Virus record (IMG/VR): IMGVR_UViG_3300032038_000017
Direction: 5' to 3' (one strand)
Length of the DNA: 64,000 nt
Source of the DNA: an uncultured virus (IMG/VR IMGVR_UViG_3300032038_000017)
Lineage: Duplodnaviria > Heunggongvirae > Uroviricota > Caudoviricetes
The position numbers and the translations under genes are program-made. Positions 1,729 to 59,715 of this stretch are shown here, in pieces. The notes below the pieces were generated by a model. It was not told where the DNA came from. It saw only the letters and a program-made list of their open reading frames with translations, and ran no database searches. The first letter of the stretch is position 1, and every line of letters starts with the position of its first letter.

Positions 1729-1768
1729 AATCCTTATAACCCCTCATATGAATTACCCTGTAAACCAT

Positions 1769-2170
1769 TTACAACGGTTGCCAATGCTTTGTTTCTTCTG
1801 CCGTAGCCGTAAGGCTAAAGTCTTCGACATTTATAGTATCAATGTCGGTAATGTACTTTACAAGCCGTGAATACGGAATTATACCGTCAAAGCCCCACTG
1901 CTTTGCATAGTCCATGTTGTAAGTCTTCTCGGTAAATACCATAGCACCACAGTTCAGGAAATGAATACGTGCCATCCTTGAACCACCACAAGGTTTGTAT
2001 TCCAAAACGTAGACACAACTTCTTATCGGATTATCTACTAAACCAAAGCCGTTTCTGTCTACTTGGATTTCACGGTAGTCTGGTGCACCTTTATGGTCTT
2101 TAAGCCATTTTTTGCGTGTTACTTCGTTCCAATCATTTATGTGTTGTATAAATACCTGCGTTGATGCCAT
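1769..2170 (-). CDS. hypothetical protein
   Basis: start moved to the ATG after element and RBS. Confidence 0.8.
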   Translation of the reverse strand: MASTQVFIQHINDWNEVTRKKWLKDHKGAPDYREIQVDRNGFGLVDNPIRSCVYVLEYKPCGGSRMARIHFLNCGAMVFTEKTYNMDYAKQWGFDGIIPYSRLVKYITDIDTINVEDFSLTATAEETKHWQPL

Positions 2171-2240
2171 TTCGATTTTCCTTTTATCATTGTATATTAT
2201 AACTATAAAGGGCTTTACCCTGCAAACACTCAAGAACATT

Positions 2241-2266
2241 AAGCCCCCTATAAAAGAGGGCTTTTT
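2241..2266 (-). terminator. Intrinsic terminator (example of many between units)
   Basis: AGCCC..GGGCT hairpin just after the stop of ORF 2268. Confidence 0.6.
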
Positions 2267-2267
2267 A

Positions 2268-2861
2268 TTACTTGTATTCAGTAATTATGTCCGTAATATC
2301 TTCTTCACGCACTGTGTCGGTGAAATGCTTGTCTACGATGTTTATACACGCTTCACAGTCTTCGTAATCCGTCCATTCTGTTTCCAGTGTAAAGTTTACT
2401 TCAAAACGCTTCTTCAACTTGTCAAGCTCTGCAAGAAAGTCTGCCTTACGCTTTTCAAAGTCCAAGTCGCACTTGTGCTCCCTTTCCCAACGGACACCAC
2501 AGTTATACTGTTCGATACAAGAGCTGATTATGCCCTCTTCCAACTTTGAAACATTTATATCCGTAATGCCACGGCTCTTCAACTTCGACTGTATCTTGCT
2601 TGGACTGTCCCAACCAAGGTATTCCTGCTTCTTTCCGTATTCAAGTTCTGCTTCACGGCACCAATCCCACTTGTGCCAAGTGCCAAGTGAATACTGTCTT
2701 GAAGTAATACGACCCTTGTCTGCAAAGCCATCTTTACCTATGTTAAGCGATACCTTAAGAAAATAATGTAAGCCGTCAAAGCCACTTTTGTTAGAAGCAA
2801 GCTTTCTTGCATTACACAAAAATCTGTATCCATCGTCTGAAAACTCTAAATCTCGCTTCAT
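2268..2861 (-). CDS. hypothetical protein
   Basis: ORF after element. Confidence 0.85.
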   Translation of the reverse strand: MKRDLEFSDDGYRFLCNARKLASNKSGFDGLHYFLKVSLNIGKDGFADKGRITSRQYSLGTWHKWDWCREAELEYGKKQEYLGWDSPSKIQSKLKSRGITDINVSKLEEGIISSCIEQYNCGVRWEREHKCDLDFEKRKADFLAELDKLKKRFEVNFTLETEWTDYEDCEACINIVDKHFTDTVREEDITDIITEYK

Positions 2862-2914
2862 TTCGTTTACCTATTATAACCTAAGATGTGCGTTACCCTG
2901 ACAGGGCTTTAAAA

Positions 2915-3058
2915 AGGAAACAGTGGGATTTGAACCCACATAAGTTTTTCTAGAGTTAAGCGGCGTAAACCTTTGCATATGCCTTAGTTATTCTCGTTTC
3001 CACTCAAGGCTTTATAGGTCGGGAGCCGCAGCATTATCCAAAGTTATGCTATGTTTCC
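2915..3058 (-). ncRNA. tRNA-like RNA with an about 60-nt anticodon loop
   Basis: GGAAACA/TGTTTCC acceptor, GCAT..GG..ATGC D arm, GCGGC/GCCGC anticodon stem enclosing a long insert, GTGGGTTCAAATCCCAC T arm. Confidence 0.7.
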
Positions 3059-3072
3059 TTTTGACTGAACTA

Positions 3073-3279
3073 TCAATAGAAAGCGTCAGACATAGAATCT
3101 GCCAATTCCACCAACAAGTTCAACTCGTTCTCGGACATCTTTCTGCAACGGTCAATTCCGAATGTCTGCCGAATAGCATAATATGAATTATACCAACTTT
3201 CGTTGCAACCCATACTGTTTCTAGCAGTTGTTCCGACTACCGATTCAATTCCGTCCAAGATTTCTTTTTTTGTCATCAT
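3073..3279 (-). CDS. hypothetical protein
   Basis: AAGGAG RBS before MMTKK. Confidence 0.75.
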   Translation of the reverse strand: MMTKKEILDGIESVVGTTARNSMGCNESWYNSYYAIRQTFGIDRCRKMSENELNLLVELADSMSDAFY

Positions 3280-3392
3280 AATAAAACTCCTTGAAGTAGA
3301 CTTACTACTTCCCATTTCATAAGCCGTCCTAGAAGTTCTTTCTGCTTTTGACAATAATTATATTATAACCTTTACAAGGTTTACCCTGTAAA

Positions 3393-3623
3393 CTACCATC
3401 CCTCCGATTCGGCTACATCTTCGCCAGCTCCGAAAGAATCATAATAGTCGTCAAACTCTGACTTATCTTCTTCTTCGTCATAGTCGGCTCTGAATGGGTT
3501 AGGCTTTATCCAACTGTGTGGATTACCTTCCCTTTTCTTCTTCCAATAGTATTCTTTATAATAACCTTTTCGGTGTCGGTCGCCTTTCTTGTAACCGTTA
3601 TCACCTTTTTCTGTTCTGCTCAT
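3393..3623 (-). CDS. hypothetical protein, basic N-terminus and acidic C-terminus
   Basis: ORF after element and AGGGG RBS. Confidence 0.7.
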   Translation of the reverse strand: MSRTEKGDNGYKKGDRHRKGYYKEYYWKKKREGNPHSWIKPNPFRADYDEEEDKSEFDDYYDSFGAGEDVAESEGW

Positions 3624-3734
3624 TTTAATAGCCCCTATCATGTCCATTATAACCTTTTCTAATCCCTACCCTGGAAAGCAAAAAGTGGAACGGCTCCTCT
3701 GACAGAAGAACCGTCCCCCAAAGTAGGTAAGAAA

Positions 3735-4316
3735 TTAAAATGTTGTTGCCTCTACCTTTTTCTGTATTGGCTTCAACTGTTTGATTACTGCGTTAATTTC
3801 CTTACAGATGTTTGGATAATCTTTAAGGAATGGTTTCAAATAAGAATCTTTTGCCTTAATGTTTTCAAGTTCACTGATACTGCGTTCAATGTAACTTGCC
3901 ACCCAGTCACGAGCCTGAATTGCTTCTTTGTTCATACCGAAATGACTGTTAAGCATATCGACAAAGCCATCCAACTGATACTGTGAATAAGGAACGGAAA
4001 GCAATGCTTGTTTCTTGGAATGACCTCTTACATTGACGAGCTTATGTGTCCACTGTGCGTATCTGTGATTGATTGCGGAATCATCAAACTGTTCGACTGT
4101 TCTTACACCGTCACCATAGTCGTCTGCAACACGAGTTCTAGTTCCAAAGTTGTCTACGGCATAAAGTTCGATGTAATCACCTTCATCGCCATAACCTTCA
4201 CGAACAAAGAACTTTTGATTCTTGAAAGTAAATGATACGGCAACTGGGATGTCGTCATACCGAATTACACGGGTTACTTTCAGATTGTCTTTGTCAAATA
4301 AGAATTTCTGTTTCAT
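3735..4316 (-). CDS. hypothetical protein
   Basis: ORF after element. Confidence 0.85.
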   Translation of the reverse strand: MKQKFLFDKDNLKVTRVIRYDDIPVAVSFTFKNQKFFVREGYGDEGDYIELYAVDNFGTRTRVADDYGDGVRTVEQFDDSAINHRYAQWTHKLVNVRGHSKKQALLSVPYSQYQLDGFVDMLNSHFGMNKEAIQARDWVASYIERSISELENIKAKDSYLKPFLKDYPNICKEINAVIKQLKPIQKKVEATTF

Positions 4317-4350
4317 TTTAATATCCTACCTAGGTATTTATATTATAACC

Positions 4351-4656
4351 TTAGATAGATTTACCCTGTGAATCTGGCGAGTCTTCTGTTTTTTCTTCAA
4401 TGTCAGACACGGCTTCTTCTGCTTCCTTCTGTGCTTCCTCGTCCTTATTCTGTCTTTGAATTTTAGTGTAATAAGAGAACCCCTTGTTATGGTGTTCGTC
4501 TTGCCATTCGGATTTGTCGGAATGTTTTCCGTTATGCTTACCCGTGATAGCCCAAACATCGTCATCATAAATCAGTTTTCTGATTTTAGGCATCTTCTTC
4601 CAACACTTGTGTCTGTTCTTGAATTTGCGTTTAATTGATTCACTTGCCATAAACAC
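4351..4656 (-). CDS. hypothetical protein
   Basis: ORF with RBS; ends inside next element. Confidence 0.7.
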   Translation of the reverse strand: MFMASESIKRKFKNRHKCWKKMPKIRKLIYDDDVWAITGKHNGKHSDKSEWQDEHHNKGFSYYTKIQRQNKDEEAQKEAEEAVSDIEEKTEDSPDSQGKSI

Positions 4657-4697
4657 CTACCCCTTCGACATCATCAATAGTTACCCCATAAAAGGGT

Positions 4698-4952
4698 TTA
4701 GTAATAGCACTCACAGAACTCGTCTACTGTTACATACTCAAAGTTGTGTGTAGCGGCATAGCCTTCAAGTTCGTGGTAATTTATTGCAGATACGCCACCG
4801 TCAGTAGTTTCTACATCTACAATAATCAAATCGTCTTTGCCACGGTAAATGTTTATTACACCACTACCACCTGGCGAAAGCCAATTCTTAATCCATTTGT
4901 TTACATTTCGTTTTACTATTTTCTGTTCATAATTCGGTACAAATTTACTCAT
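4698..4952 (-). CDS. hypothetical protein
   Basis: AGGAG RBS. Confidence 0.8.
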   Translation of the reverse strand: MSKFVPNYEQKIVKRNVNKWIKNWLSPGGSGVINIYRGKDDLIIVDVETTDGGVSAINYHELEGYAATHNFEYVTVDEFCECYY

Positions 4953-5025
4953 ACTTTCTCCTTCCTCGTTGCCGTCCGACTATTCTCGTTCAGTCTTTTA
5001 ATTCTATTATAACCATAAGGGGAGT

Positions 5026-5289
5026 TTACCCTGCCTGACAAATTGCCTTGATTGCCACATTAAATGTCTTTTCGTTAAGCGGCACATTTACATAAAGTTC
5101 TGCAAACTCGTTTTTCTTCATACTCCTAATTACGGATTTGTAGTCCTTATGTTTTTCATTGACGCAACTTATAAAACGGTTAAGCTGCTTTAATGTTGGG
5201 TTATTCAAACAAGCCCATAGGTCTTTATTGACTTCGTAGATTTCTACCTTACCAAACAAGTCCGTATTTTTAGTAAAAAGTGTTTTCAT
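5026..5289 (-). CDS. hypothetical protein
   Basis: GAGG RBS; stop supplied by element. Confidence 0.8.
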   Translation of the reverse strand: MKTLFTKNTDLFGKVEIYEVNKDLWACLNNPTLKQLNRFISCVNEKHKDYKSVIRSMKKNEFAELYVNVPLNEKTFNVAIKAICQAG

Positions 5290-5292
5290 AAA

Positions 5293-5613
5293 TTACCTCA
5301 AGAAACTAACAAGTTCGTGCAAGATAAACTGACTGTGTGTTGTTGTAATTTTTAAGCCATCTTTACACGAAATACCTTGGTTATCAAGAGCGAACTTAAT
5401 GTCGCTCAAATCTACTTCTACTTCTTCGTCAGTTGGGATTAACATACTCGGTACGAGTTCTGCATAAACAGAAGCCTTATGAAGTTTTTTATCTGTTATA
5501 GAAACATCAAAAAAAGCACCCACCATTGTCCCTATGAATAGTTTATTGTCCATAACAAAGTCATAGATATCTTCGTAGTGTTTGTTATTGTTCTTTAAAT
5601 AAATGCCTTTCAT
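5293..5613 (-). CDS. hypothetical protein
   Basis: element and RBS. Confidence 0.8.
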   Translation of the reverse strand: MKGIYLKNNNKHYEDIYDFVMDNKLFIGTMVGAFFDVSITDKKLHKASVYAELVPSMLIPTDEEVEVDLSDIKFALDNQGISCKDGLKITTTHSQFILHELVSFLR

Positions 5614-5670
5614 AATTAACCCCTATGATTATTATATTATAACCATAAAGGAAACTTACCCTGTTAAAGA

Positions 5671-5886
5671 TTATCTACGGAATCTACCTTTATGTGACCA
5701 AGGTTTTTTAAGCGTAATGTAAATCTTATTTTCTTCGATTTTGATTACAAACTTTTGATGGTTGGAATGTTCGCCGTTTATCAATTCGTCCACTGTCAGT
5801 TCGGTGTAAAAGCCTTCGCCCATATACAAGTAATAGGTATAGTCTGCAAACCCTTCAAGGCTTTCAATCCATTTCTTTAATGTCAT
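5671..5886 (-). CDS. hypothetical protein
   Basis: element and RBS. Confidence 0.75.
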   Translation of the reverse strand: MTLKKWIESLEGFADYTYYLYMGEGFYTELTVDELINGEHSNHQKFVIKIEENKIYITLKKPWSHKGRFRR

Positions 5887-6279
5887 ACACTACTCCCTAT
5901 TATAATCTTGCCAGTTGTCTACCCTGTGGAAACAAAAGCAAGAGGCTCCGTTCAGACAGACGAACTCTCGGTGAACCTTGTTTAAGGGGGACGTCCCACC
6001 AAAAAATCATCTGACTGAATAGAGCCTCTTTATTGTATGTTATCGCAACATTCACATAAAAAGGTAAGTTTGACTCATTTCTCACTTTGAATCACTACTC
6101 GGATAACTTCAATCAAACTTGTCGTATTCAAACATAATGTTACTCAGTGCTTGTCACCCCACCATTTGGGGTCGCTATCTGCATTAGTCCGAACCGTTAC
6201 TCATTCGGTCGTCTAAAACCTTTTGTGCCTTATAGCCTCTGTCGGTGTGAGGGACAACCCTATAAGTGTGTTTCGTCTA

Positions 6280-6365
6280 GCCTAGCAAGGGAATCGAACC
6301 CTAAATGTTACACTCCTTATGGCACAGTAGCATCGTTATTCAGTAAACTGAACGCCAACCTAGGC
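6280..6365 (-). ncRNA. Degenerate tRNA-like element
   Basis: GCCTAG/CTAGGC acceptor-like stem and AGGGTTCGATTCCCT T arm; D and anticodon arms non-canonical; element copy at 6404-6431 upstream. Confidence 0.5.
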
Positions 6366-6441
6366 ATAAAAATCATTTTACTTTTTTTATCTTACACTAT
6401 TCTTATTATAACCTTGCCCAAGTTTACCCTGGGCAATGTTG

Positions 6442-6648
6442 TTATCCCAATCGACAAGGAATCTTGTTTGTTTCGCCACAACAGTTGCAAGGAATAAGCA
6501 ACCCACCGTTACGATTAACAGTTGCCGTATTACCACGACCACTTGACCAATTACCACAAGCACCACACTGAAATACAACTTTTGGACTCATGCCAAAAAG
6601 CATTGATACGCTCATAGTAAACATTTCTGCTTGTTTACAAGTTACCAT
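6442..6648 (-). CDS. small zinc-ribbon protein
   Basis: two CxxC pairs (CGAC, CNCC). Confidence 0.7.
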   Translation of the reverse strand: MVTCKQAEMFTMSVSMLFGMSPKVVFQCGACGNWSSGRGNTATVNRNGGLLIPCNCCGETNKIPCRLG

Positions 6649-6650
6649 AA

Positions 6651-6857
6651 TTATCCCCTACCGTGTTCGTCAAAGTATCTTGCGATTTCCTTTGAAGAAT
6701 CATTTTCCAAGTCTTTCCCAAGTGCATTAAGATATCTACATAATGCTTCTTGGAAATCGTCCCTTGAAGAAGAAATGTGGTTCTGAAGTTCATCATACAG
6801 ACCTACTGAGATACAGTCAAAAGCCCACCACATTGCGTCTTTTTCGTTCTTTACCAT
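6651..6857 (-). CDS. hypothetical protein
   Basis: ORF; start uncertain. Confidence 0.65.
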   Translation of the reverse strand: MVKNEKDAMWWAFDCISVGLYDELQNHISSSRDDFQEALCRYLNALGKDLENDSSKEIARYFDEHGRG

Positions 6858-6895
6858 AATTATAACATCGCCCAAGGCTTACCCTGGGCAGAATC

Positions 6896-7090
6896 TTATT
6901 TTCCGTAAAGGAAGTTAGATAAGCCTTTCTGCATATATTCCGTCAGTTCTCGGCCTCTAGCGTTCAATTCTTTCTGAAGTTTCAACTCCCACTCAAGTTC
7001 TTCCTCAGACATTAAAGGCTCTTCAACTTTTACTTCTGTTGGAGCAACCTTGTGATTTTTCCCAAAAAGTTTCTTCAAAAGTCTAATCAT
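6896..7090 (-). CDS. hypothetical protein
   Basis: GAGGGG RBS before MIRLL. Confidence 0.7.
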   Translation of the reverse strand: MIRLLKKLFGKNHKVAPTEVKVEEPLMSEEELEWELKLQKELNARGRELTEYMQKGLSNFLYGK

Positions 7091-7091
7091 A

Positions 7092-7511
7092 TTAATGCCC
7101 CTCGTGAACAATTGCAATAGGTGTACCACGCCAATCATACAACTTGAAGCCTTTTAAGACATTGTAAAGCATTGTGTCCCTACGATAAGGCTTGCCACTG
7201 TATTCTGCTTTTGACTTTTCCATATCGGCTTTAAGCCATTCGATTACCTTTTTAATGTCTTTGGTGTAGGTCAAACGCTCACCGTAAACATCTTCGTAAT
7301 GCTTGTCTTTATATGGGTCATAACCCAAACTTACTTCTGACTCTGCATTTGACAAAAAGAAATAGAAATCTTCTACTTCCTTATCAAACAACTGTTTAAA
7401 GCCGTCTGCCATTCCACGCAGTTCAATAGTCATAAGGTGTTCTGCCCAATGTGATTTTTCGTTAGTGCCTTCGTGAATTGCTACAATGTGTACTCTGTTG
7501 TCGTAGCCCAT
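7092..7511 (-). CDS. hypothetical protein
   Basis: GAGG RBS. Confidence 0.85.
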   Translation of the reverse strand: MGYDNRVHIVAIHEGTNEKSHWAEHLMTIELRGMADGFKQLFDKEVEDFYFFLSNAESEVSLGYDPYKDKHYEDVYGERLTYTKDIKKVIEWLKADMEKSKAEYSGKPYRRDTMLYNVLKGFKLYDWRGTPIAIVHEGH

Positions 7512-7680
7512 AATAGATACCTCGCTTTGCGATTAGTGTTTTAGGAAAGGCTCGAAACTCGATTGCCTTATAACATTAATATTATAACCTTTAATTGATT
7601 TACCCTGTAAACATTTTAGGGCAAAATAAAAAGCCGTCTTTTGTTTATGACGGCTCTATGATTGCTTTCAAAAAGTTGCC

Positions 7681-7794
7681 TTAGAAACTTACATAGTCTG
7701 CTCTGCAACCCTTATGGAAAGCTGCGAACTTTTTAGCGTCACTTTCCATAAAAAACTCTTTAACGGTTTTACCGTTCTTTGAAACAATCCACAT
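7681..7794 (-). CDS. 37-aa small protein (not in ORF track)
   Basis: element, AAGGAG, MWIVSKNGKTVKEFFMESDAKKFAAFHKGCRADYVSF, terminator. Confidence 0.7.
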   Translation of the reverse strand: MWIVSKNGKTVKEFFMESDAKKFAAFHKGCRADYVSF

Positions 7795-7868
7795 AGGTTT
7801 AACTCCTTATGCTACTTGTATTATAACCACAAGATAGTGTTACCCTGTGATTATTACTGCAAGTCTTT

Positions 7869-8069: not shown

Positions 8070-8123
8070 TGTCCCCCTTAGACAATAATTAAATTATAAC
8101 CTTATGAAATATCTACCCTGAAC

Positions 8124-53332: not shown

Positions 53333-53584
53333 TTACCAAACATGGCCAACGGAAAATTCGTCAAGACCTTCTTCCAAGATTTTCAAATCAACCTTGTCGG
53401 CATCAATGTCTGTTGCACGAATAAGGAACGAATTGTTGTCTGAATGGTACATAATGTCCAACTTGCCAGTCTCTTCGTTAAGAACGACATCAACATTGTC
53501 TGAACTGTATTCATTCAGTTCTTCTTCCACCATTGACACAATTCTGTTTGCCAATCTTTCAGTCATAGGATAAACTTTGCTCAT
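53333..53584 (-). CDS. hypothetical protein
   Basis: element and RBS. Confidence 0.8.
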   Translation of the reverse strand: MSKVYPMTERLANRIVSMVEEELNEYSSDNVDVVLNEETGKLDIMYHSDNNSFLIRATDIDADKVDLKILEEGLDEFSVGHVW

Positions 53585-53652
53585 AGTCTTTATCTCCTTA
53601 CACTATATAAATTATAACCTTGCAAGATGTCTACCCTGCAAGGTCATTTGTT

Positions 53653-54426
53653 TTAGTCCTCAAATATTTCCCAACCAAGTCGGTCTTGAATCTCTTTGGT
53701 CTTTGCCGTCATAAGAGAATCAATCTCTTCGTAGACTTCAAGCATCTTGTCAAGTTCAGTTTCAGAAGGCATACGGTGATGGAAAGTTTTGCACCATTCC
53801 TTGTCCAAGGCACTTGCACCGTTCCAACCAACTATGGCAAACATTTCAATACCAAAGTCGCCATACTTGTTGCAGAGTTCTTTAATCTGCCTTGCTTTCT
53901 GTGTTTTTGTGTCGTGGTCGTAGAAGTATTTCATTTCCAAGTCCCTCTTTTCTTCCAAGACATCGTGAAACCAAAGGTCTACGATACGACCATCCTCGTC
54001 ATAGTATGGGGTGTAATCACTTGAACCCCAAAGAGTTCTAGGGGTCTTAGAACCAAAGTCCGTATACTCACGACCACCAAATGAATAGTTTCCATAATGG
54101 TAATGGTCGTCTACAATGCCCCAAGGGTCGTTTCTTTTCAACCACGCTTTAAGCGAATTAACCTTTACACAGCCCCAACTGTCCTTTTTCAAGGTGTCCT
54201 TTTCTGCGTTGTATTTGTCCATAAGGTTGAGCATATAAGTAGCCCCACCTTCGTGTCCACGCAGAAGATAATTCTTGTCGATAAAGTCAATCTTTTCTTT
54301 TTCAGAAAGTTTTACTTCATCTTCGTAAATGTAGTATCTGCAAGCGTTAGGTTGTCTGTCGTTTACTCTGGCGATAGCGTCACACTTTTCCTTGTAATAC
54401 TTCAAATCAGAAACATTGTATTCCAT
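53653..54426 (-). CDS. hypothetical protein
   Basis: element and RBS. Confidence 0.88.
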   Translation of the reverse strand: MEYNVSDLKYYKEKCDAIARVNDRQPNACRYYIYEDEVKLSEKEKIDFIDKNYLLRGHEGGATYMLNLMDKYNAEKDTLKKDSWGCVKVNSLKAWLKRNDPWGIVDDHYHYGNYSFGGREYTDFGSKTPRTLWGSSDYTPYYDEDGRIVDLWFHDVLEEKRDLEMKYFYDHDTKTQKARQIKELCNKYGDFGIEMFAIVGWNGASALDKEWCKTFHHRMPSETELDKMLEVYEEIDSLMTAKTKEIQDRLGWEIFED

Positions 54427-54456
54427 AGTTATCTCCTTACAGATTACATTATAACC

Positions 54457-55140
54457 TTACAGTTTCTTTACCCTGCTGCCGTAAACTTTTGACCAATACT
54501 TACCCTTGAATTCCCCTTCGGTCATTTTCGCCTTGTTGTCTGTGTTTACGAACTTCATTCCAAGTTTTTCAAGTTCTGCCCTTAAAGCCTTTGTAACGAC
54601 ATTTGAAGGCAATACAACATCACTGTCATCAAACAATGCCTTGATAGACACGGCAACTTCATTGTCTGGAACAATGCGAATCGGCTTGTCCCACCTTGTA
54701 AGATAAACAAGTCTTGTGCCAGTCATAAGTCCACGAACCAATCCTGCCTTCCACTTCTTTATGCCTACTGAATCTTTTGCTTTTTCTGCCTTGTATGGAT
54801 TTTTGCTTTCCAATTCAGACATAGGGATTTCAACTTCCATAATAGCCAAGTTGTCACGGTCTTGTGCCGAACTGAATTGGTCATTAAGCATAAAGTTTGA
54901 ACTGTGAATGTATGGATTGTATTTTGCCTTAATCTTTTTGCCGTTTCCTTTGTCCAAAACAAAGTAGCCTTTTTCGTCTACCATAGACGGATTTTCTTCT
55001 GACTGTTCCCATACATTGAACTGAATAGGGTCACGAAGTTTTCCGTTTACCTTAGCACTTACGGCTGGATAAGGTTTTCCGTCAATAATCTGAACGGCTC
55101 TGTAAGCCTTCATAGTTTTTACATTATCTAAGTTAATCAT
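54457..55140 (-). CDS. hypothetical protein; YNPY.HSS..LNDQF domain recalled from large polyvalent phage proteins
   Basis: element and RBS; family recall unverified. Confidence 0.8.
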   Translation of the reverse strand: MINLDNVKTMKAYRAVQIIDGKPYPAVSAKVNGKLRDPIQFNVWEQSEENPSMVDEKGYFVLDKGNGKKIKAKYNPYIHSSNFMLNDQFSSAQDRDNLAIMEVEIPMSELESKNPYKAEKAKDSVGIKKWKAGLVRGLMTGTRLVYLTRWDKPIRIVPDNEVAVSIKALFDDSDVVLPSNVVTKALRAELEKLGMKFVNTDNKAKMTEGEFKGKYWSKVYGSRVKKL

Positions 55141-55232
55141 TGTTTTATCTCCTTATGTTTTATAGATTATAACCCTATAGGTGTTTTACCCCGTATAAAA
55201 TTAAAGCCGACCTATAGAAGTCGGCTTATTCT

Positions 55233-55631
55233 TTAGCAAGGCTTGATTTCTGCTTTGAAGAACGCTTTGATTTTGTTGTAGTAGTCGATTGCCTCAGTCA
55301 GTTCTGTAAAGAACTTGTCTGTCTGTGGAAATCCCTTACTTGCAACTGTTGCGTCTACTTCGTAAACAACCCCAATTTCTATGTCGTCATCGACACTTGC
55401 AAGAATTCCCATACTTGCGGCTGGCACAACGTCACCAATGCCAATCTGTGTCATTGTGATGTCGAATATACCGAATTCACCGTCTACTGAATAAGACGCT
55501 ACACGGTTTGCCATCCAATATTCGATATCCTTGTCGCCCTTTTTACGAGTAATGTAGCCTTCTTCACGAAGGTGTTCCATATCGCCTTTTTCAAGTGGAA
55601 TGAACTTCAACTGACCTCTTCTAACTTCCAT
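55233..55631 (-). CDS. hypothetical protein
   Basis: element and RBS. Confidence 0.82.
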   Translation of the reverse strand: MEVRRGQLKFIPLEKGDMEHLREEGYITRKKGDKDIEYWMANRVASYSVDGEFGIFDITMTQIGIGDVVPAASMGILASVDDDIEIGVVYEVDATVASKGFPQTDKFFTELTEAIDYYNKIKAFFKAEIKPC

Positions 55632-55722
55632 AGTTTAATCCCCTTATAGTTTTATTATTATAACCTTGTAGATTGTTTACCCTGAATAAAATTAAAGGTG
55701 GCTATGAAAGCCACCTACATTT

Positions 55723-56349
55723 TTACTTGTAAAGTTCGTCCTCTTTGTAAAGGAAGTCTACAGACAAATCCTTGTCAAGAATCGCACGAATCTTGTTCAA
55801 GTCTTTTTCGGGGATTGCACGATACAACCAACCGTGTCCGTATTTGTAAGGCTTTCCGTCTACTTCAACTTCATACAGTCCGTGTCTTTTCAAAAGTTCA
55901 CAATCAACAGAATAACTGTTCCAAGCAGAACCGTGCCAATTCTGCCATTCCTTGAAATAGTTATCACTGTAACCAATTTCGGCTTTGGCTTTTTCCCAAG
56001 CAGACTTGCGAAGTTCCTCACGGATTGTGTCTTTCTCGCTTGCAAAGTCTTTAAGACAGTTTTCTTGTTCAACAGTTCCGGCGTTCATGTCGTTCAAGTG
56101 ATACTTGCCCCACAAGTCTGCAATCAGATTGTAAAGACGGTCGTTCTTGAAGTATCTTTTGATACTGTCGATACACTGACCACCAGCAACACAATCCGTA
56201 TGGCGAGAGTTCCAAACAAAACCACAAACACTGAATGTTGGTTTGTCTGTATCTGCATTACGAAGTTCAATGTCCAATCTTACGGCATTGATTTTTCTGT
56301 TGCCATTGTAGGCAATCTTGCCAAAGTCAATCTTTCGTTTCAAATCCAT
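55723..56349 (-). CDS. hypothetical protein, paralog of 52882..53262
   Basis: element and RBS; HLNDM.AG and YKYGHGW. Confidence 0.88.
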   Translation of the reverse strand: MDLKRKIDFGKIAYNGNRKINAVRLDIELRNADTDKPTFSVCGFVWNSRHTDCVAGGQCIDSIKRYFKNDRLYNLIADLWGKYHLNDMNAGTVEQENCLKDFASEKDTIREELRKSAWEKAKAEIGYSDNYFKEWQNWHGSAWNSYSVDCELLKRHGLYEVEVDGKPYKYGHGWLYRAIPEKDLNKIRAILDKDLSVDFLYKEDELYK

Positions 56350-56403
56350 AGTAGTTATCTCCTTATGGCAAGTTTATTATAACCTTGCCAAATGCTTACC
56401 CTG

Positions 56404-56844
56404 TTAAACTTTCCAACCTTTTATGTCATCAAGATTGATTTTATACATACTTGCAAGTGTAGCAACATAAAAAGCCGTAAGCCGTACAAATACATAATCC
56501 GTAGCACTGCAAGCCACTGACCATTCACCGTCTTTGAACAAATAAAAGTATCCAATGTCCCAACCTTCTTTCAAGATTTTGTCAAGTTTCTTAGCCTTGT
56601 GGACTACTTCTTTTTGGTCGTCATACGGCTTGTCATCGTCAAATGTAGAACGGTCACCGATAGCAACAAGTTCACGAGCATTTCTGTCGTTGTATTCTTC
56701 TGCATAGTTTGGGTTTGTAGAATAACATTCTTCAAGGATTCTTGCACCTACCCCGTTTGGTCGAACATAGCCGTCATTATGAATGTAACTGTAAGTGTAA
56801 GTTCCGTCTTTCTCTGCGTAGATAACATAGCATCTTGTACTCAT
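56404..56844 (-). CDS. phage hypothetical protein (MSTR..YIHNDGY type)
   Basis: element and RBS. Confidence 0.85.
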   Translation of the reverse strand: MSTRCYVIYAEKDGTYTYSYIHNDGYVRPNGVGARILEECYSTNPNYAEEYNDRNARELVAIGDRSTFDDDKPYDDQKEVVHKAKKLDKILKEGWDIGYFYLFKDGEWSVACSATDYVFVRLTAFYVATLASMYKINLDDIKGWKV

Positions 56845-56963
56845 AGTTTAATCTCCTTATGCTCCTATAAATTATAACCTTTATGTTATACTACCCTGTA
56901 AGGATTATAACTTATAGGTTATAAAAAAATCGGCAACACTATTAAAGAATTGCCGATAAAAAA

Positions 56964-57314
56964 TTAAAAATTATTGTTGTTTTTCAAGGCTTCAACTGTC
57001 TTGTTAAAGACATCCAATGCCTTGTCAAAAGCGTCAGAAGGGAAGAACAAGTCGTGTCCTACACCTGCCGCGTTCATAATGGAAACAAGAAAGCCTTCCC
57101 TTGTTGAGACCATTACATCTATCGGCAACTGAACAATTGCGTTTTCTTCTGTTGCCGTCAGAACAACTGAATTGTAGATGTCACCATCAATCTGTTTCTT
57201 TTGGGGTGTATCACACCAAGAAAAAAGTGGACAAATAACACTAAGTCCTTCTACCTCACCCAGTTCTTTCCACTGTTTGCTTTCTTTTGCCGTAAAACTT
57301 CTAAGTTCTTTCAT
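56964..57314 (-). CDS. hypothetical protein
   Basis: start after element and RBS. Confidence 0.8.
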   Translation of the reverse strand: MKELRSFTAKESKQWKELGEVEGLSVICPLFSWCDTPQKKQIDGDIYNSVVLTATEENAIVQLPIDVMVSTREGFLVSIMNAAGVGHDLFFPSDAFDKALDVFNKTVEALKNNNNF

Positions 57315-57386
57315 AGTTTGGTTTCTCCTTATGTCTGTTGTATTATAACCTATCAAGGTATCTACCCTGATAGGCTTTTCAGTATT

Positions 57387-57932
57387 TTAGCAACCGTAAA
57401 CTTTCTTTGCGTAATGCAGATTTACACTGTAACCCTTGCTCCACAACTTTTCGTGTAATGTCTGTGGGTCATCGTATTCGTGTCTGTCAAAATATTCAAC
57501 ACCACGCTTTGTAAGTTTCTTTACTTCCCAACAGTTTGTTCCATCGTGGTGATAGCCGTGAATGTTGAATACACCTTTATCATCAAAGATTTTCATAGCG
57601 TCAACATTGCCCCAAGCCTTAGACAAGTCATTGTAATTCTTTACAACAAAACCACCACGATGCCGCCCATCCCAAAGTCCAGCAGAACCAACCAAGATAA
57701 AAATGCTACCGTCATTGAAGAAATTTTTAAGGTTTGACGCTTCTTCTTCCCAAGCAATTTCGTTACAGTCATAGATTTCTTGACTGATTTCTTCGTTAGA
57801 AGGCTCCCAATCTTTATCTTCCGGAAAGTCTTCCAAGTGTCGGTCAATACAATACTGCCTTGCATCATCCCAATCGTAGCCGTCATAATTATCAAAAATT
57901 ACAACTTCCGTTTTCTTCTGTTTGTTACTCAT
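57387..57932 (-). CDS. phage hypothetical protein (GLWDG..HHDGTN type)
   Basis: element and RBS. Confidence 0.88.
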   Translation of the reverse strand: MSNKQKKTEVVIFDNYDGYDWDDARQYCIDRHLEDFPEDKDWEPSNEEISQEIYDCNEIAWEEEASNLKNFFNDGSIFILVGSAGLWDGRHRGGFVVKNYNDLSKAWGNVDAMKIFDDKGVFNIHGYHHDGTNCWEVKKLTKRGVEYFDRHEYDDPQTLHEKLWSKGYSVNLHYAKKVYGC

Positions 57933-58028
57933 AGTAGTTTATCTCCTTATGCTTTACAGATTATAACCCTAAGGTATGTCTACCCTGTATAAATTAAAAA
58001 CGGACAGATTTCTCTGTCCGTATAACTT

Positions 58029-58433
58029 TTAGTCTTCTTCGTTTTCTGTTTCAAGATGACCAAAACTGAATACCAAAATCTGATTTGGTTCAATTCCAAC
58101 TTCTTTACCGTCGTAGTCAATGATTTTCTTTGTTTCGGAACAAAGGTTCTTTACATAGACATAATCGCTGAAATACTTGTCAAAGTATGTTTCGTGGCGG
58201 AAGTCAACCGATTCTTCGATGAAGTACGGTTTATTGAACTCGCCTTCGTATTCAAAGTTATTGGCATTGAACTCTTCCACTTCACGAACAAGGTCGTCTT
58301 TATTGTTGACTCTTCCGAGTCTTTCAATAACTTCTGGTCCGTGTCCGTTCTTTGTGTTGTACATGTCACCATTGAACTCGTATGAGGTGAACATACCCTC
58401 ATCTGTGATAATCGCAAACTTTCCTCTTGTCAT
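58029..58433 (-). CDS. hypothetical protein
   Basis: element and RBS. Confidence 0.85.
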   Translation of the reverse strand: MTRGKFAIITDEGMFTSYEFNGDMYNTKNGHGPEVIERLGRVNNKDDLVREVEEFNANNFEYEGEFNKPYFIEESVDFRHETYFDKYFSDYVYVKNLCSETKKIIDYDGKEVGIEPNQILVFSFGHLETENEED

Positions 58434-58498
58434 AGCAACTCCTTATGGTATCTGTATTATAACCATACAAGGCATTTACCCCGTATGGTTTTACATGC

Positions 58499-58765
58499 TT
58501 ACGCAACAAGTTCCACTCTTGCGAACGGCAGATTTGTTCCTAAATCCCAAAACTCGAAATAGTCTGGTGAGCAAGAATGGTCTACATCGATGTTATCAAG
58601 GTATTCTTTATTCAAGAAACCTTTGTCGGCACAAGCCTTCATAATGTCATCAATAGACGCATCTTCGCCTACTTCGATTGGCTTTTCTGAAAACTTCATA
58701 ATGTTGTTTACTTCATAATCGTTTTCATCGCCCCAAACATCATAGGTATAAAAGATATATTTCAT
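58499..58765 (-). CDS. hypothetical protein
   Basis: element and RBS. Confidence 0.82.
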   Translation of the reverse strand: MKYIFYTYDVWGDENDYEVNNIMKFSEKPIEVGEDASIDDIMKACADKGFLNKEYLDNIDVDHSCSPDYFEFWDLGTNLPFARVELVA

Positions 58766-58927
58766 AGATTTAATCTCCTTATAGTTCTTTTTATTATAAC
58801 CATAGTTTGTGTTACCCTGATAAGCCGTTCGGCTTTATCTTCTGTATAATAGAAGGAATTTGTTCGTTCGGCTATGAAAAAATTATCTATAATAGAAAGA
58901 AAAAATCCGATAAAAAATAAAAATAAT

Positions 58928-58954
58928 CGGGGTAAAAAAATCTTGAATTATAAT
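58928..58954 (+). promoter_or_regulatory. Plus-strand copy of the element upstream of ORF 58976
   Basis: CGGGGTA-N14-TATAAT followed by AAGGAG and ATG. Confidence 0.8.
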
Positions 58955-58975
58955 ATACTTTGCAAGGAGTAAACT

Positions 58976-59419
58976 ATGGAAATTAAAGACGAAGAACTCT
59001 TGAAAAAAATCGTAAGAAGATTCTCAGAAACATTCCATGTCGGTCAGTGTGGCGAACCTACGATGCCGACAGAAGATAAGGTTGTTCTCACATTTGGTTT
59101 CATTGGAGACGAAATGTCAGACTATAAAATTTACCTTGCTATTTATGACAATGGCTTTACCGTAAGTGTCCGTTACGAAAACGAAGCCCGAAAAAAATTC
59201 CACGAAAATTATGTTTCTAAAGCATACTATTCAGACATTAAATCCTCCGAAGACTTTTGCAAGAAAATAGCCGCCGCTATCTTTGTAGAAATTCACACAT
59301 TCTGCGACGGCGACATTATCCCTCACTTGGTAGATTGGATTCATGTTGCCGGACTTGGAGCAGGCTCTGACCCTATCAAAGTAATGAAAGAATACTCTGA
59401 AAAAAATCTCAACGCATAA
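58976..59419 (+). CDS. hypothetical protein
   Basis: plus-strand element and AAGGAG. Confidence 0.85.
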   Translation: MEIKDEELLKKIVRRFSETFHVGQCGEPTMPTEDKVVLTFGFIGDEMSDYKIYLAIYDNGFTVSVRYENEARKKFHENYVSKAYYSDIKSSEDFCKKIAAAIFVEIHTFCDGDIIPHLVDWIHVAGLGAGSDPIKVMKEYSEKNLNA

Positions 59420-59428
59420 GGAAAAAAC

Positions 59429-59653
59429 ATGACTGTTTATCAGCTTTATCTGAAAGGGAAATCGGCAGTCTTTGAAGAGCCATTCAAGGCAGCTTGTCAG
59501 ACCGTCACAAAACATTATCCTACGGAAGAAGAAAAGCAGGACTTTATCAAGTCTTGCCAAGATAAGTCATACTTAAACTTTCTCGATGTGTCTACAGAAA
59601 AGGCTCGTGAACTCCTGGAAGTAAAAGTTCTGGAGCTAACGCTTAAAGACTAG
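59429..59653 (+). CDS. hypothetical protein
   Basis: AAGGA RBS. Confidence 0.78.
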   Translation: MTVYQLYLKGKSAVFEEPFKAACQTVTKHYPTEEEKQDFIKSCQDKSYLNFLDVSTEKARELLEVKVLELTLKD

Positions 59654-59688
59654 AAAAAAAATATAACTCTGCAAGAAAAAAAATCTTG

Positions 59689-59715
59689 CAGGGTAAGAAA
59701 TAATAAGGTTATAAT
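59689..59715 (+). promoter_or_regulatory. Plus-strand copy of the element upstream of ORF 59739
   Basis: CAGGGTAAGAAATAATAAGGTTATAAT, then GAGG and ATG; overlapped by hairpin CTGCAAGA..TCTTGCAG. Confidence 0.88.

What the first reader, a model, noticed from the sequence alone, without database searches (positions are those of the whole stretch)
1733..59715. A 57-kb array of about 115 single-gene cassettes, each headed by the same 27-28 bp element
Seen: the unit [CAGGGTA-N14/15-TATAAT] - short leader with SD - small ORF (occasionally two) - often a terminator repeats about every 500 bp across 57 kb. The cargo is almost all unrelated: Ssb, ComM-like ATPase, methyltransferase, protease, a tRNA, non-coding units. 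Copies flip strand with the genes (58928, 59689). Known: TATAAT is the sigma70 -10 box, but the upstream block is not TTGACA. Repeated promoter/stem-loop cassettes that shuffle modules (PeSL elements) have been described in T4-type phages, and integrons store single genes between attC sites. Inference: a phage-specific early promoter that also serves as the junction through which genes are captured, excised or reordered, making an integron-like accessory gene bank. No recombinase is visible in this window.
Basis: partly seen in the sequence, partly recalled or inferred. Interest (0 to 1): 0.92.

Follow-up and report, generated by a model that had tools for sequence, protein, structure and literature searches.

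The report
Phage array of 114 promoter-terminator cassettes
A 57-kb stretch of an uncultured giant virus of cattle-gut bacteria puts nearly every small gene behind its own copy of one 28-base start signal that often doubles as a stop hairpin, and related viruses have lost whole genes exactly between copies, a known style of phage genome plasticity seen here at far higher copy number and with an unusual upstream box.

Summary
CAGGGTA-N14/15-TATAAT occurs 91 times (0 expected). A weight matrix finds 114 copies on the minus strand between 1733 and 58819. 101 of 114 sit about 26 nt before a ribosome site, a start codon and a small ORF.

I read it as a phage-specific composite promoter, leader and terminator cassette, like the PeSLs of T4-type phages. 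It has a perfect extended -10 and an upstream box that is not TTGACA. In 47 of 114 copies the box and spacer form a hairpin of about 12 pairs (7.75 in shuffles).

Contigs from another sample lack 901, 732 and 840 bp, each matching a promoter-to-promoter distance to within 1 nt. Two other indels in a related MAG contig are not of that kind.

Nothing supports an integron-like, recombinase-driven system. No transcription start was mapped, and the factor that reads the box is unknown.

The element lies in a probable ~290-kb rumen phage that is absent from the phage collections searched. The scan has noted PeSL-like cassettes on other phage DNA before, in arrays of five to about fifteen copies.

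Verdict: a new variant of a known kind, of moderate to high interest.

The parts
1733..58819 (-). Array of 114 copies of the 27/28-nt element, all on the minus strand. Element coordinates: 1733-1760,2196-2222,2873-2900,3362-3388,3646-3673,4342-4368,5006-5033,5636-5663,5899-5926,6405-6431,6859-6886,7581-7607,7820-7847,8093-8120,8454-8481,8857-8884,9309-9336,9431-9458,9879-9906,10491-10518,11048-11075,11363-11390,11738-11764,12332-12359,12744-12771,13141-13168,13816-13843,14260-14287,14833-14860,15291-15318,15582-15609,16760-16787,17191-17218,17684-17711,18029-18056,18378-18405,18902-18928,19515-19542,20093-20119,20512-20539,20876-20903,21353-21380,21623-21650,22175-22202,22487-22514,22923-22949,23153-23179,24232-24259,24701-24728,25138-25165,25670-25697,26171-26198,26630-26657,26956-26983,27573-27600,27857-27884,28245-28272,28529-28556,28915-28942,29243-29270,29528-29555,30258-30285,30845-30872,31290-31317,31574-31601,31818-31845,32351-32378,32871-32898,33351-33378,33992-34019,34477-34504,35392-35419,35769-35796,36076-36103,36754-36781,37412-37439,38043-38070,38576-38603,38944-38971,39485-39512,39853-39880,40254-40281,40930-40957,41252-41279,42537-42564,42950-42977,43420-43447,43761-43788,44493-44520,45390-45417,46239-46266,46831-46858,47191-47218,47594-47621,48014-48041,48694-48721,49237-49264,49541-49568,49926-49953,51049-51076,51384-51411,52448-52475,52847-52874,53288-53315,53611-53638,54448-54475,55166-55193,55657-55684,56376-56403,56871-56898,57342-57369,57960-57987,58456-58483,58793-58819
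   Evidence: Weight-matrix scan, cut 12 bits, best shuffle score 2.5; 90 of the 114 are exact matches.
48014..48048 (-). Model copy. AACCTTG + CAGGGT pairs with GCCTTGCAAGGTT (13 pairs, loop AAAA). TATAAT follows at 48019-48014, then TTTTTAAACAGATAAGGAGATAAAACT and the ATG of gene 47636-47986.
   Evidence: -20.4 kcal/mol; listed as terminator-like, 13 pairs.
53611..53647 (-). Copy whose hairpin reaches 15 pairs, running from ATGACCTTG upstream into TTAT of the -10 box.
   Evidence: 53647-53614, 15 pairs, T-rich tail.
59689..59715 (+). Exact 27-nt copy on the plus strand, 23 nt before the ATG of the plus-strand gene 59739-60818.
58928..58954 (+). Variant copy (CGGGGTA-N14-TATAAT with GAATTATAAT) on the plus strand before gene 58976-59419. 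It lies back to back with the last minus-strand copy at 58793-58819.
   Evidence: Read; below the matrix cut.
17231..17257 (+). Weak plus-strand copy (19.7 bits, TATAAG), back to back with 17191-17218.
10961..11075 (-). Element 11048-11075 followed 13 nt later by tRNA-Gln (10961-11034). tRNA-Met (10599-10675) lies downstream in the same unit.
12387..12771 (-). Element 12744-12771 with the ATG of gene 12387-12734 exactly 9 nt after TATAAT (leaderless type). The copies at 8857, 9879 and 10491 have the same geometry.
   Evidence: listing. The PHROG match covers residues 7-97 against profile 9-99 of 103, which supports this start.
38043..38943 (-). 901 bp (two genes and one promoter) absent from an 11.4-kb contig of run X8. 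Both ends lie at the TATAAT end of elements 38043-38070 and 38944-38971.
   Evidence: table 8, record 25 (record positions 2432/2433 are contiguous).
43750..44492 (-). 743 bp (genes 43831-44259 and 44249-44467 plus promoter 43761-43788) replaced by 10 nt in the same X8 contig. Net loss is 733 bp; the promoter-to-promoter distance is 732.
   Evidence: tables 5c and 8, record 25.
52432..53271 (-). 840 bp (genes 52523-52822 and 52882-53262) absent from an 8.2-kb X8 contig. The ends lie 17 and 16 nt after the TATAAT of elements 52448-52475 and 53288-53315.
   Evidence: table 8, record 28.
23306..24193 (-). Cargo: C5 cytosine DNA methyltransferase.
   Evidence: Pfam PF00145, E 1.6e-25; phrog_116.
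39896..40228 (-). Cargo: single-strand DNA-binding protein.
   Evidence: Pfam PF00436, E 1.7e-10.
51452..52423 (-). Cargo: ComM/YifB-type Mg-chelatase-like AAA ATPase.
   Evidence: PF01078, E 4e-67; TIGR00368, E 3.5e-91, below its cut-off.
293..1728 (-). Downstream flank of the array: tightly packed or overlapping small genes with no element.
   Evidence: The same layout continues for 2.1 kb further in locus L200.

Best explanation
The repeat is a phage-specific composite regulatory cassette. It gives almost every gene of a 57-kb block of small, mostly orphan genes its own transcription unit. Read on the minus strand, a cassette runs as follows. First comes the end of the previous gene; the box's TA plus its 8th base (always A or G) is itself a stop codon. 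Next is the upstream box C(A/G)GGGTA, then a 14/15-nt spacer, then the extended -10 GGTTATAAT. About 9 nt further is a conserved G-Y-A-T, where I place the transcription start. Then comes a short leader (ATAAGGAGATAAACT or a GGGGG variant) and the ATG. The -10 is the kind read by a sigma-70-family holoenzyme. The box sits where a -35 element or a T4 MotA box would sit but is not TTGACA. I therefore infer that a phage-made or phage-modified specificity factor reads it. In about half the copies, six bases upstream plus CAGGGT pair with the last 12 bases of the spacer. I infer that this hairpin, followed by the U-rich -10 and discriminator in read-through RNA, stops or attenuates transcription from the previous unit. 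The cassette would then be terminator and promoter in one, like a PeSL. Because about 115 near-identical direct repeats lie 0.1-1.3 kb apart, homologous recombination or slippage between them deletes whole units and presumably inserts them. This contributes to gene-content differences between strains. Shown: the repeat, its geometry, the hairpin's excess stability and covariation, and three promoter-to-promoter deletions in another sample. Inferred: promoter activity, the start site, the terminator role, the reading factor and the recombination mechanism.
For: Repeat and geometry: 91 exact copies against 0 expected and 114 minus-strand copies by matrix. 101 of 114 are followed by SD, start and an ORF of at least 30 aa, with TATAAT-to-start median 26 nt (10th-90th percentile 23-30). 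Copies flip with gene direction at 59689 and 58928. One copy lies 13 nt before tRNA-Gln. Four genes start exactly 9 nt after TATAAT, one with family support for that start. The same G-Y-A-T occupies +8..+11 in SD-type copies. Not a host-type promoter: the sigma-70 consensus scan of 44001-64000 finds 48 sites against 47.3 +/- 7.7 expected and picks none of the elements. The strict 28-nt pattern hit 91 stretches across 185,579 species genomes; only two contigs of one MAG, both pieces of this phage, carried more than one match. Constraint: between orthologous copies the two boxes differ at 4 of 224 positions (1.8%), against 4.35% in coding sequence, 7.9% in the spacer and 7.7% in the leader (core against CDS p = 0.06). 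Hairpin: 47 of 114 copies fold at -8 kcal/mol or lower, against 7.75 (max 12) when flank and spacer letters are shuffled. Mean energy is -8.76 against -4.06 +/- 0.20. Swapping upstream flanks among copies gives -7.80 +/- 0.20 against -9.56 observed. In fixed register, 64.6% of cells pair against 63.2 +/- 0.4 (0 of 500 shuffles), and at most 53.6% when slid. Box position 2 (A/G) covaries with a spacer T/C: AU 34, GC 11, GU 6. The independent scan lists four of these hairpins as terminator-like, and terminator-like sites number 32 against 13.5 +/- 3.3. Separate upstream terminators occur at 39 of 114 elements against 47 of 500 random positions. They are rarer at hairpin copies (16 of 63 against 23 of 51, p = 0.03). 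Recombination: three deletions with kilobase flanks in X8 contigs remove 901, 733 net and 840 bp, where the promoter-to-promoter distances are 901, 732 and 840. 10 of 15 listed joints have both ends in or within 20 nt of an element (compared). Precedent: PeSLs of T4-type phages have the same parts and the same proposed role (PMC2839356, sections 13 and 16 read; PMC4122927, abstract and passages read).
Against: No transcription start or end was observed. All runs are kept as contigs, which cannot show RNA ends, and RNA libraries may contain DNA. The upstream box matches no promoter element I can name, and no sigma, MotA, AsiA or HTH family was found among the window's proteins, so the reading factor is a guess. 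A start at the 10th base after TATAAT is further than the usual 7th (recalled sigma-70 geometry). Hairpins are strong in only 47 of 114 copies. The tail after them is no more T-rich than in other copies (2.30 against 2.20 T in six bases, p = 0.83). The count of pairs with changes on both sides is not above shuffles (4 against 4.2). Copies related by descent can also inflate covariation. In the one related MAG contig with indels, 0 of 2 array indels are promoter-to-promoter. One is a promoter-less ORF abutting the box; the other is an ORF inserted just after TATAAT. Two further gene-sized indels lie where there is no element. Gene-level indels therefore do not need the element. Most listed joints have a short side of 22-41 nt and may come from the aligner placing one promoter on another copy. 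Neighbouring copies are barely more alike than distant ones (0.575 against 0.588). Only 3 paralogous pairs exist, so there is no sign of recent copy-and-paste.
Confidence: 0.6

Rival explanations
1. It is a promoter (with or without a terminator) and nothing more. Strain differences fall at the element only because it fills nearly all intergenic space and selection keeps only whole-gene indels.
For: Intergenic gaps are tiny; the upstream stop lies a median 16 nt before the box. 2 of 2 array indels in L200 merely abut an element, and 2 gene-sized indels occur without any element. There is no excess similarity of neighbouring copies and there are few paralogs.
Against: Three deletions in X8 have both ends at equivalent positions of two elements, and their lengths match the promoter-to-promoter distance to within 1 nt. 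Random intergenic breaks would rarely give that.
Confidence: 0.22
2. It is an integron-like site for a dedicated site-specific recombinase that captures and excises single-gene cassettes.
For: The layout is a long one-directional array of single unrelated genes separated by a conserved, partly palindromic site.
Against: No recombinase family was found in 64 kb. The site lies at the 5' end of each gene with SD and start at a fixed distance, whereas attC sites lie at the 3' end of cassettes that typically have no promoter (recalled). The sequence has no RYYYAAC...GTTRRRY pair (read). Half the copies lack the hairpin. There is no reliable circle junction: the two 'goes back' joints have sides of 31-40 nt and one sits at the end of the laid stretch.
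Confidence: 0.03
3. It is a hairpin promoter for a phage-encoded or virion RNA polymerase, like the N4 virion enzyme, rather than for a sigma-70-type holoenzyme.
For: The element carries 34.7 bits. The box is part of a hairpin in many copies. The apparent start is unusually far from TATAAT. The phage is probably of jumbo size, and jumbo phages such as AR9 carry their own polymerases (PMC5312081, abstract and passages read).
Against: The two-block layout with a perfect TATAAT and a 15-nt spacer is the sigma-70 pattern. The hairpin is missing or weak in more than half the copies. AR9-type early promoters are a single AT-rich block, AAATATATATTAT-N6-G (PMC5312081). No polymerase gene lies in the window.
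Confidence: 0.1
4. It acts at the RNA level, as processing or stabilising hairpins in long polycistronic transcripts. TATAAT would then be incidental.
For: Hairpins are present in about half the copies, and the whole array has one orientation.
Against: The most conserved letters (CAGGGTA, GGTTATAAT) are invariant even in copies that cannot fold. The spacer arm drifts fastest between orthologues. tRNA and leaderless genes sit directly behind copies.
Confidence: 0.04

Closest known systems
PeSLs (promoter-early stem-loops) of T4-type phages (Arbiol et al. 2010, PMC2839356; Comeau et al. 2014, PMC4122927)
   Same: Both are repeated intergenic cassettes of about 60-100 bp. Each holds the stop of the upstream gene, a T/AT-rich stretch, -35 and -10 boxes, a stem-loop lying between or over the boxes, and the SD and start of the next gene. 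Both concentrate before orphan genes in plastic regions, and indels between close relatives fall at or between cassettes. The G-run/C-run stems reported for RB49/phi1 recur here in the CGGGGTA...CCCC copies.
   Different: This window holds 114 copies in 57 kb, against 52 and 51 per whole genome in phi1 and RB49. The -35 region is not a sigma-70 consensus. The stem is built from the box itself. The carrier shows no T4-like gene in the window and comes from cattle-gut metagenomes. Promoter and terminator activity and mini-circles were shown experimentally for PeSLs but not here.
PmSLs and T4 middle promoters (Mot box TGCTT plus a -10 box; PMC4122927, passage read; MotA/AsiA mechanism recalled)
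   Same: A good sigma-70-type -10 is combined with a non-sigma upstream box centred near -30 that replaces the -35 hexamer. In nt-1 this promoter type also comes as stem-loop cassettes.
   Different: The box sequence is unrelated (CAGGGTA against TGCTT). No MotA or AsiA family was found in the window. The timing class is unknown.
Integron attC sites and gene cassettes
   Same: Both form long one-way arrays of single unrelated genes separated by a conserved, partly self-complementary site.
   Different: This site heads the gene and carries its promoter and ribosome site. There are no attC core sites, no integrase, and no evidence of site-specific excision.
Early promoters of jumbo phages read by virion RNA polymerases (AR9: AAATATATATTAT-N6-G, 41 copies; PMC5312081)
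   Same: Both are highly conserved, phage-specific, many-copy promoters before early genes of a very large phage.
   Different: Those are a single AT-rich block ending 6 nt before the start. This element is two blocks with sigma-70-type spacing and nearly three times as many copies.

Membership tests
PeSL-type composite promoter/terminator cassette | Repeated intergenic motif with -35 and -10 boxes followed by the SD and start of the next gene | tested here: met
   114 copies; 101 of 114 with SD and start at a median 26 nt.
PeSL-type composite promoter/terminator cassette | Stem-loop within, overlapping or beside the promoter boxes | tested here: met
   47 of 114 copies at -8 kcal/mol or lower against 7.75 in shuffles. 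There is covariation at box position 2. Four copies are flagged as terminator-like by the scan. A separate upstream terminator is present at 39 of 114.
PeSL-type composite promoter/terminator cassette | Promoter boxes close to the host sigma-70 consensus (TTGACA-N17-TATAAT or a near variant) | tested here: not met
   The -10 is perfect but the upstream box is C(A/G)GGGTA with a 14/15-nt spacer. The sigma-70 scan shows no enrichment and does not pick the elements.
PeSL-type composite promoter/terminator cassette | Concentrated before orphan genes in plastic regions; indels between close relatives at or between cassettes | tested here: inconclusive
   The cargo is mostly orphan genes. 3 of 5 well-flanked array indels are exact promoter-to-promoter events; 2 of 5 are not.
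PeSL-type composite promoter/terminator cassette | Mini-circles formed by exchange between neighbouring cassettes | not testable with these tools
   Only contigs could be laid. The two 'goes back' joints are short-sided.
PeSL-type composite promoter/terminator cassette | Carried by a T4-like myovirus | tested here: inconclusive
   No T4-like or other hallmark gene was found in 64 kb. The rest of the genome is not held.
Integron cassette array | attC site with inverse core and core (RYYYAAC ... GTTRRRY) at the 3' end of each cassette | tested here: not met
   The alignment of 103 copies shows no such pair; GTTATAA does not fit GTTRRRY. The element lies at the 5' end of genes.
Integron cassette array | Adjacent tyrosine-recombinase integrase with attI and Pc | tested here: not met
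   No recombinase family was found among 138 window proteins. The genome outside the window was not searchable.
T4 middle (MotA/AsiA-dependent) promoter | Sigma-70 -10 plus an activator box centred near -30 in place of the -35 | tested here: met
   If the start lies 7 nt after TATAAT, the box spans -34..-28. This is geometry only.
T4 middle (MotA/AsiA-dependent) promoter | Mot box sequence (TGCTT) and MotA and AsiA proteins | tested here: not met
   The box is CAGGGTA. No MotA_activ or AsiA Pfam hit in the window at E up to 0.01.
N4-type hairpin promoter for a virion RNA polymerase | Obligatory short hairpin (5-7 bp stem, 3-nt loop; recalled) in every promoter | tested here: not met
   The stem is about 12 bp with a 4-nt loop, and it is absent or weak in more than half of the copies.

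The most novel reading that the evidence does not exclude
The CAGGGTA box defines a new promoter class. It would be read by an as yet unseen phage factor (a sigma, or a MotA-like sigma-appropriation pair) in a ~290-kb phage of rumen Bacillota. The box is woven into a hairpin, so each cassette both ends the previous transcript and starts the next. The resulting array of about 115 identical direct repeats would be an actively recombining gene bank that sheds and takes up one- or two-gene circles. That would make it the largest PeSL-type system known and, as far as I know, the first outside T4-like phages.
Probability: 0.3. Interest if true: 0.78.

Novelty: new variant of a known kind. Interest (0 to 1): 0.6.

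Why it matters
If the reading holds, this is the largest array known to me of a phage giving each gene its own insulated transcription unit. There are 114 near-identical promoters over 57 kb, in a virus lineage with no cultured or catalogued relative. Three things follow.

1. The non-canonical upstream box predicts an unknown transcription factor or sigma in a gut Bacillota phage. It could be found once a full genome is in hand.

2. The array extends the PeSL idea from T4-like phages of Gram-negative hosts to a quite different phage. In that idea, regulatory cassettes double as recombination points that shuffle orphan genes. Population data here already show whole units missing between cassettes.

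3. A set of more than 100 natural variants of one compact promoter-terminator-leader module is a ready-made parts list for measuring how spacer and hairpin changes tune expression.

Tried and rejected
1. My pattern scans of viral contigs and metagenome contigs were mis-specified. I wrote a 17-nt spacer instead of 15. Their hits (L001-L121) are chance matches, and 0 of 121 loci hold the true motif. The single metagenome scan was thereby spent, so relatives in metagenome contigs could not be fetched.

2. The corrected pattern in viral contigs gave 7 single matches and no array.

3. No similarity was found in the phage record collection. Megablast of 20 kb gave nothing. tblastn of the 421-aa protein gave nothing. 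blastn of one cassette gave 3 insignificant hits.

4. The search for related loci with the 421-aa protein and with an 8-sequence alignment found nothing in viral contigs.

5. A search of 301 genomes of G001's family with that protein, and of G001 with window 58900-64000, found nothing.

6. No whole genome is held, so a sigma, polymerase or recombinase elsewhere in the phage could not be sought.

7. Column-by-column mutual information did not reveal the hairpin. Copy-swap and folding tests did.

8. The idea that hairpin copies have a more T-rich tail was not supported. Nor was the idea that they sit at the tightest gene junctions (Mann-Whitney p = 0.90).

9. RNA-library contigs (X15) cover all 30 bins, but contigs cannot show RNA ends or prove transcription. 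Loose ends cannot be used, because contigs from other parts of the phage align by their promoter.

10. The high-depth spots at about 41320-41358 and 44640-44675 are AT-rich low-complexity tails of terminators, not a mobile repeat.

11. The paper search for the box sequence returned only unrelated primer matches in the 20 of 933 papers listed. The protein atlas gave no usable lead.

12. P0091's STAS domain belongs to a 902-bp chimeric-looking contig, not to the window's protein.

Full report
**Observation.** The pattern CAGGGTA-N14/15-TATAAT occurs 91 times in the window, 90 times on the minus strand and once on the plus strand. None was found in 100 dinucleotide-preserving shuffles.

I built a weight matrix from the 80 exact 28-nt copies and cut it at 12 bits. 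The best score in three shuffled windows was 2.5. The matrix finds 117 sites, 114 of them on the minus strand between 1733 and 58819.
- The minus-strand boxes are CAGGGTA 93, CGGGGTA 18 and CAGGATA 3.
- GGTTATAAT is intact in 104 of 114.
- 103 copies are 28 nt long and 11 are 27 nt.
- The 28-nt element carries 34.7 bits.
- Spacing is median 462 and mean 505 bp.

The copy at 59689 is exact; the one at 58928 is a CGGGGTA variant.

**Anatomy.** When the copies are aligned on TATAAT, conservation runs beyond the 28 nt.
- Upstream there is a T-rich stretch.
- Downstream there is a G-Y-A-T at +8..+11, then ATAAGGAG(AT) or a G-run, then the start codon.
- 101 of 114 elements are followed by SD, a start and an ORF of at least 30 aa. 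The distance from TATAAT to the start is tightly set: median 26 nt, 10th-90th percentile 23-30.
- Four genes (behind the copies at 8857, 9879, 10491 and 12744) start exactly 9 nt after TATAAT. For one of them a PHROG profile aligns from residue 7, which supports that start.
- These four look leaderless, so transcription should begin no later than the 10th base. That base is the conserved A of G-Y-A-T in the other copies. This start site is inferred, not observed.
- One copy lies 13 nt before tRNA-Gln, with tRNA-Met further downstream.
- The 8th base of the element is always A or G (77 and 37), so the box ends in TAA or TAG. In 10 of 114 copies this is where the longest upstream frame stops.
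- By my rough gene calls, 83 units hold one gene, 18 hold two and 13 hold none. Some of the 13 are miscalls on the wrong strand, tRNA units or leaderless units.

**Hairpin.** In many copies the six bases before the box plus CAGGGT pair with the last twelve bases of the spacer around a 4-nt loop. An example is ACCTTGCAGGGT-AAAA-GCCTTGCAAGGT at 48014.
- 47 of 114 copies fold at -8 kcal/mol or lower, against a mean of 7.75 (maximum 12) when flank and spacer letters are shuffled within each copy. Mean energy is -8.76 against -4.06 +/- 0.20.
- Swapping the upstream flank among copies weakens the fold, from -9.56 to -7.80 +/- 0.20. The pairing is therefore specific to each copy.
- On a gap-free alignment of the 103 28-nt copies (11 27-nt copies left out), 64.6% of cells pair in the stated register. 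Shuffles give 63.2 +/- 0.4 (0 of 500 reach the observed value) and slid registers give at most 53.6%.
- Box position 2 covaries with its spacer partner: A-U 34, G-C 11, G-U 6.
- The number of pairs with changes on both sides is not above shuffles (4 against 4.2).
- The tool's own scan of 44001-64000 lists four of these hairpins as terminator-like (13-15 pairs with a T-rich tail). It finds 32 terminator-like sites against 13.5 +/- 3.3 expected.
- A separate hairpin plus T-run lies within 90 nt upstream of 39 of 114 elements, against 47 of 500 random positions.
- Such separate terminators are rarer at hairpin copies: 16 of 63 against 23 of 51, p = 0.03.
- 83 of 114 copies have one or the other.

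I infer that the hairpin ends or attenuates the previous transcript. Against this, the tail is no more T-rich in hairpin copies.

**What reads it.** The -10 is a perfect sigma-70-type hexamer with G at -14. The upstream block, however, is not TTGACA.
- The consensus scan for sigma-70 promoters shows no enrichment (48 against 47.3 +/- 7.7) and does not pick the elements.
- The strict 28-nt pattern matched 91 stretches across one genome for each of 185,579 species. Only two contigs of one MAG carried more than one match, and both are pieces of this same phage. Elsewhere in that 5-Mb MAG there is one chance match.
- So the element is specific to the phage and does not copy a host promoter type.
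- If the start is taken 7 nt after TATAAT, the box spans -34..-28. That is the place of a -35 hexamer or of a T4 MotA box.
- I therefore favour a sigma-70-family holoenzyme steered by a phage-made sigma or activator.
- No such protein is visible in the window at Pfam E up to 0.01, and the rest of the genome is not held.
- Between orthologous copies in the MAG contigs, the two boxes differ at 4 of 224 positions (1.8%). Coding sequence differs at 4.35%, the spacer at 7.9% and the leader at 7.7% (core against CDS p = 0.06). This points to constraint on the boxes, but weakly.

**Carrier and cargo.** Of 138 predicted proteins, only three reach a Pfam family cut-off: a C5 methyltransferase, an SSB and a ComM/YifB-like ATPase.
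- A dozen match PHROGs of unknown function.
- A SprT-like/HExxH signal at 14338-14802 is sub-threshold.
- Only 3 paralogous pairs exist among 146 ORFs. Self-similarity at the DNA level is otherwise limited to stretches under 125 bp at the cassettes.
- The stretch occurs in bovine-gut metagenome runs of 13 studies, including six RNA libraries.
- The 421-aa protein just outside the array has 94 relatives. Those at about 75% identity sit on contigs of up to 289,278 bp. I infer a phage of roughly 290 kb.
- Two small contigs of the phage were binned in a MAG whose title says Bacillota. Together with the strong AAGGAG/GGGGG ribosome sites, this hints at a Bacillota host.
- Beyond the array's downstream end, small genes are packed head to tail with no element (window 293-1728, and 2.1 kb more in L200). 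One promoter per gene is therefore a property of this block, not of the whole genome.

**Is it a recombination junction?** I laid contigs of three DNA runs and one RNA run on 35000-54999.

Two long contigs of run X8 differ from the window by three clean deletions.
- 38043-38943 is missing (901 bp). Both ends are at the TATAAT end of elements 38043 and 38944, which share 12 identical bases there.
- 43750-44492 is replaced by 10 nt. The net loss is 733 bp, and the promoter-to-promoter distance is 732.
- 52432-53271 is missing (840 bp). The ends lie 17 and 16 nt after two TATAATs, and the distance is 840.
- Each deletion removes two genes.
- The copies concerned do not share a 31-mer in the window, so a de Bruijn mis-join is unlikely. 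That is my inference.

Of the 15 joints listed, 10 have both ends in or within 20 nt of an element. Most of these have a short side of 22-41 nt, so they may reflect the aligner placing a promoter on a look-alike copy.

The MAG contigs give a more mixed picture.
- L202 is colinear with 37801-41477 at 95.6% identity.
- L200 has four indels. Two lie outside the array at gene boundaries.
- One is a 368-bp promoter-less ORF ending exactly at the 5' edge of a box.
- One is a 287-bp ORF inserted just after a TATAAT.

So 3 of 5 well-flanked array indels are exact promoter-to-promoter events. This fits homology-driven loss between direct repeats. It also shows that gene-sized indels happen without the element.
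- The two 'goes back' joints are short-sided, and one lies at the end of the laid stretch, so I have no evidence of circles.
- Neighbouring cassettes are hardly more alike than distant ones.

**Comparison with what is known.** The closest known system is the PeSL of T4-type phages.
- A PeSL is a motif of about 100 bp holding the upstream stop, an AT-rich stretch, sigma-70 boxes, a stem-loop between or over the boxes, and the SD and start.
- PeSLs lie before orphan genes in plastic regions. There are 52 in phi1 and 51 in RB49. Promoter and terminator activity have been shown, and mini-circles detected (PMC2839356, sections 13 and 16 read).
- A later paper adds Mot-box versions, called PmSLs (PMC4122927, abstract and passages read).
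- The present element has the same parts and the same kind of strain differences.
- It differs in the box sequence, in building the stem from the box itself, in copy number and density, and in its carrier.
- It fails the defining features of integron attC sites. It is unlike the single-block early promoters of AR9-type jumbo phages (PMC5312081, passages read).
- Earlier notes of this scan describe PeSL-like cassettes in other phages, with five to about fifteen copies. I did not test those notes.

**Limits.**
- No RNA ends, no full genome and no raw reads were available.
- My two mis-typed pattern scans cost the only metagenome scan.
- Gene calls are my own rough ones.
- The supplementary files of the PeSL papers were not opened.

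Noticed in passing
window 2915-3058 (-): A tRNA model match spans 144 nt (35.9 bits against a gathering score of 29). ARAGORN did not call it. It looks like a tRNA gene interrupted by an insert of about 70 nt, possibly an intron.
   Followed up: partly
window 41320-41358 and 44640-44675: AT-rich low-complexity tails after two terminators collect very high contig depth (364 and 210 in run X1) and many loose ends. This is probably k-mers shared with other organisms, not a mobile repeat.
   Followed up: partly
window 16854-17132 (-) and 28623-28889 (-): This is the only close paralogous pair in the array (68% amino-acid identity and 72.6% nucleotide identity over 252 nt), sitting 11.8 kb apart, each copy behind its own cassette.
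   Followed up: no
window 53653-54426 (-): Contigs of runs X8 and X15 match only islands inside this 257-aa gene (joints 53751>53950 and 53976>54276), with a stretch of similar length in between. The gene appears to be a mosaic or fast-evolving gene.
   Followed up: no
window 1733-20000 versus 30000-58800: The leader type changes along the array. GGGG-type ribosome sites and the four leaderless starts cluster in the first 20 kb. AAGGAG leaders dominate from 30 kb on (0-2 per 10 kb against 11-15). The array may hold sub-blocks with different histories or timing.
   Followed up: partly
window 17191-17257: A minus-strand copy with CAGGATA and a weak plus-strand copy (TATAAG) lie back to back 12 nt apart, in the middle of the one-directional array. 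Whether the plus-strand ORF 17491-17865 is real was not checked.
   Followed up: no
window 35404-35431 (+): This weak plus-strand matrix hit (14.9 bits) is the reverse reading of the near-palindromic element 35392-35419. It is most likely not a separate site.
   Followed up: partly
protein P0091 (relative of window 60931-62196): A 250-aa protein on a 902-bp contig is 91% identical to the first 44% of the window's 421-aa protein and then continues into a STAS domain that the window protein lacks. It is either a chimeric assembly or a recombinant.
   Followed up: partly
locus L200 5421-5788 and 6033-6319 (-): The related MAG contig carries two extra small ORFs that the window lacks: a membrane-like ORF of about 120 aa and one of about 96 aa. 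Neither has its own cassette.
   Followed up: partly
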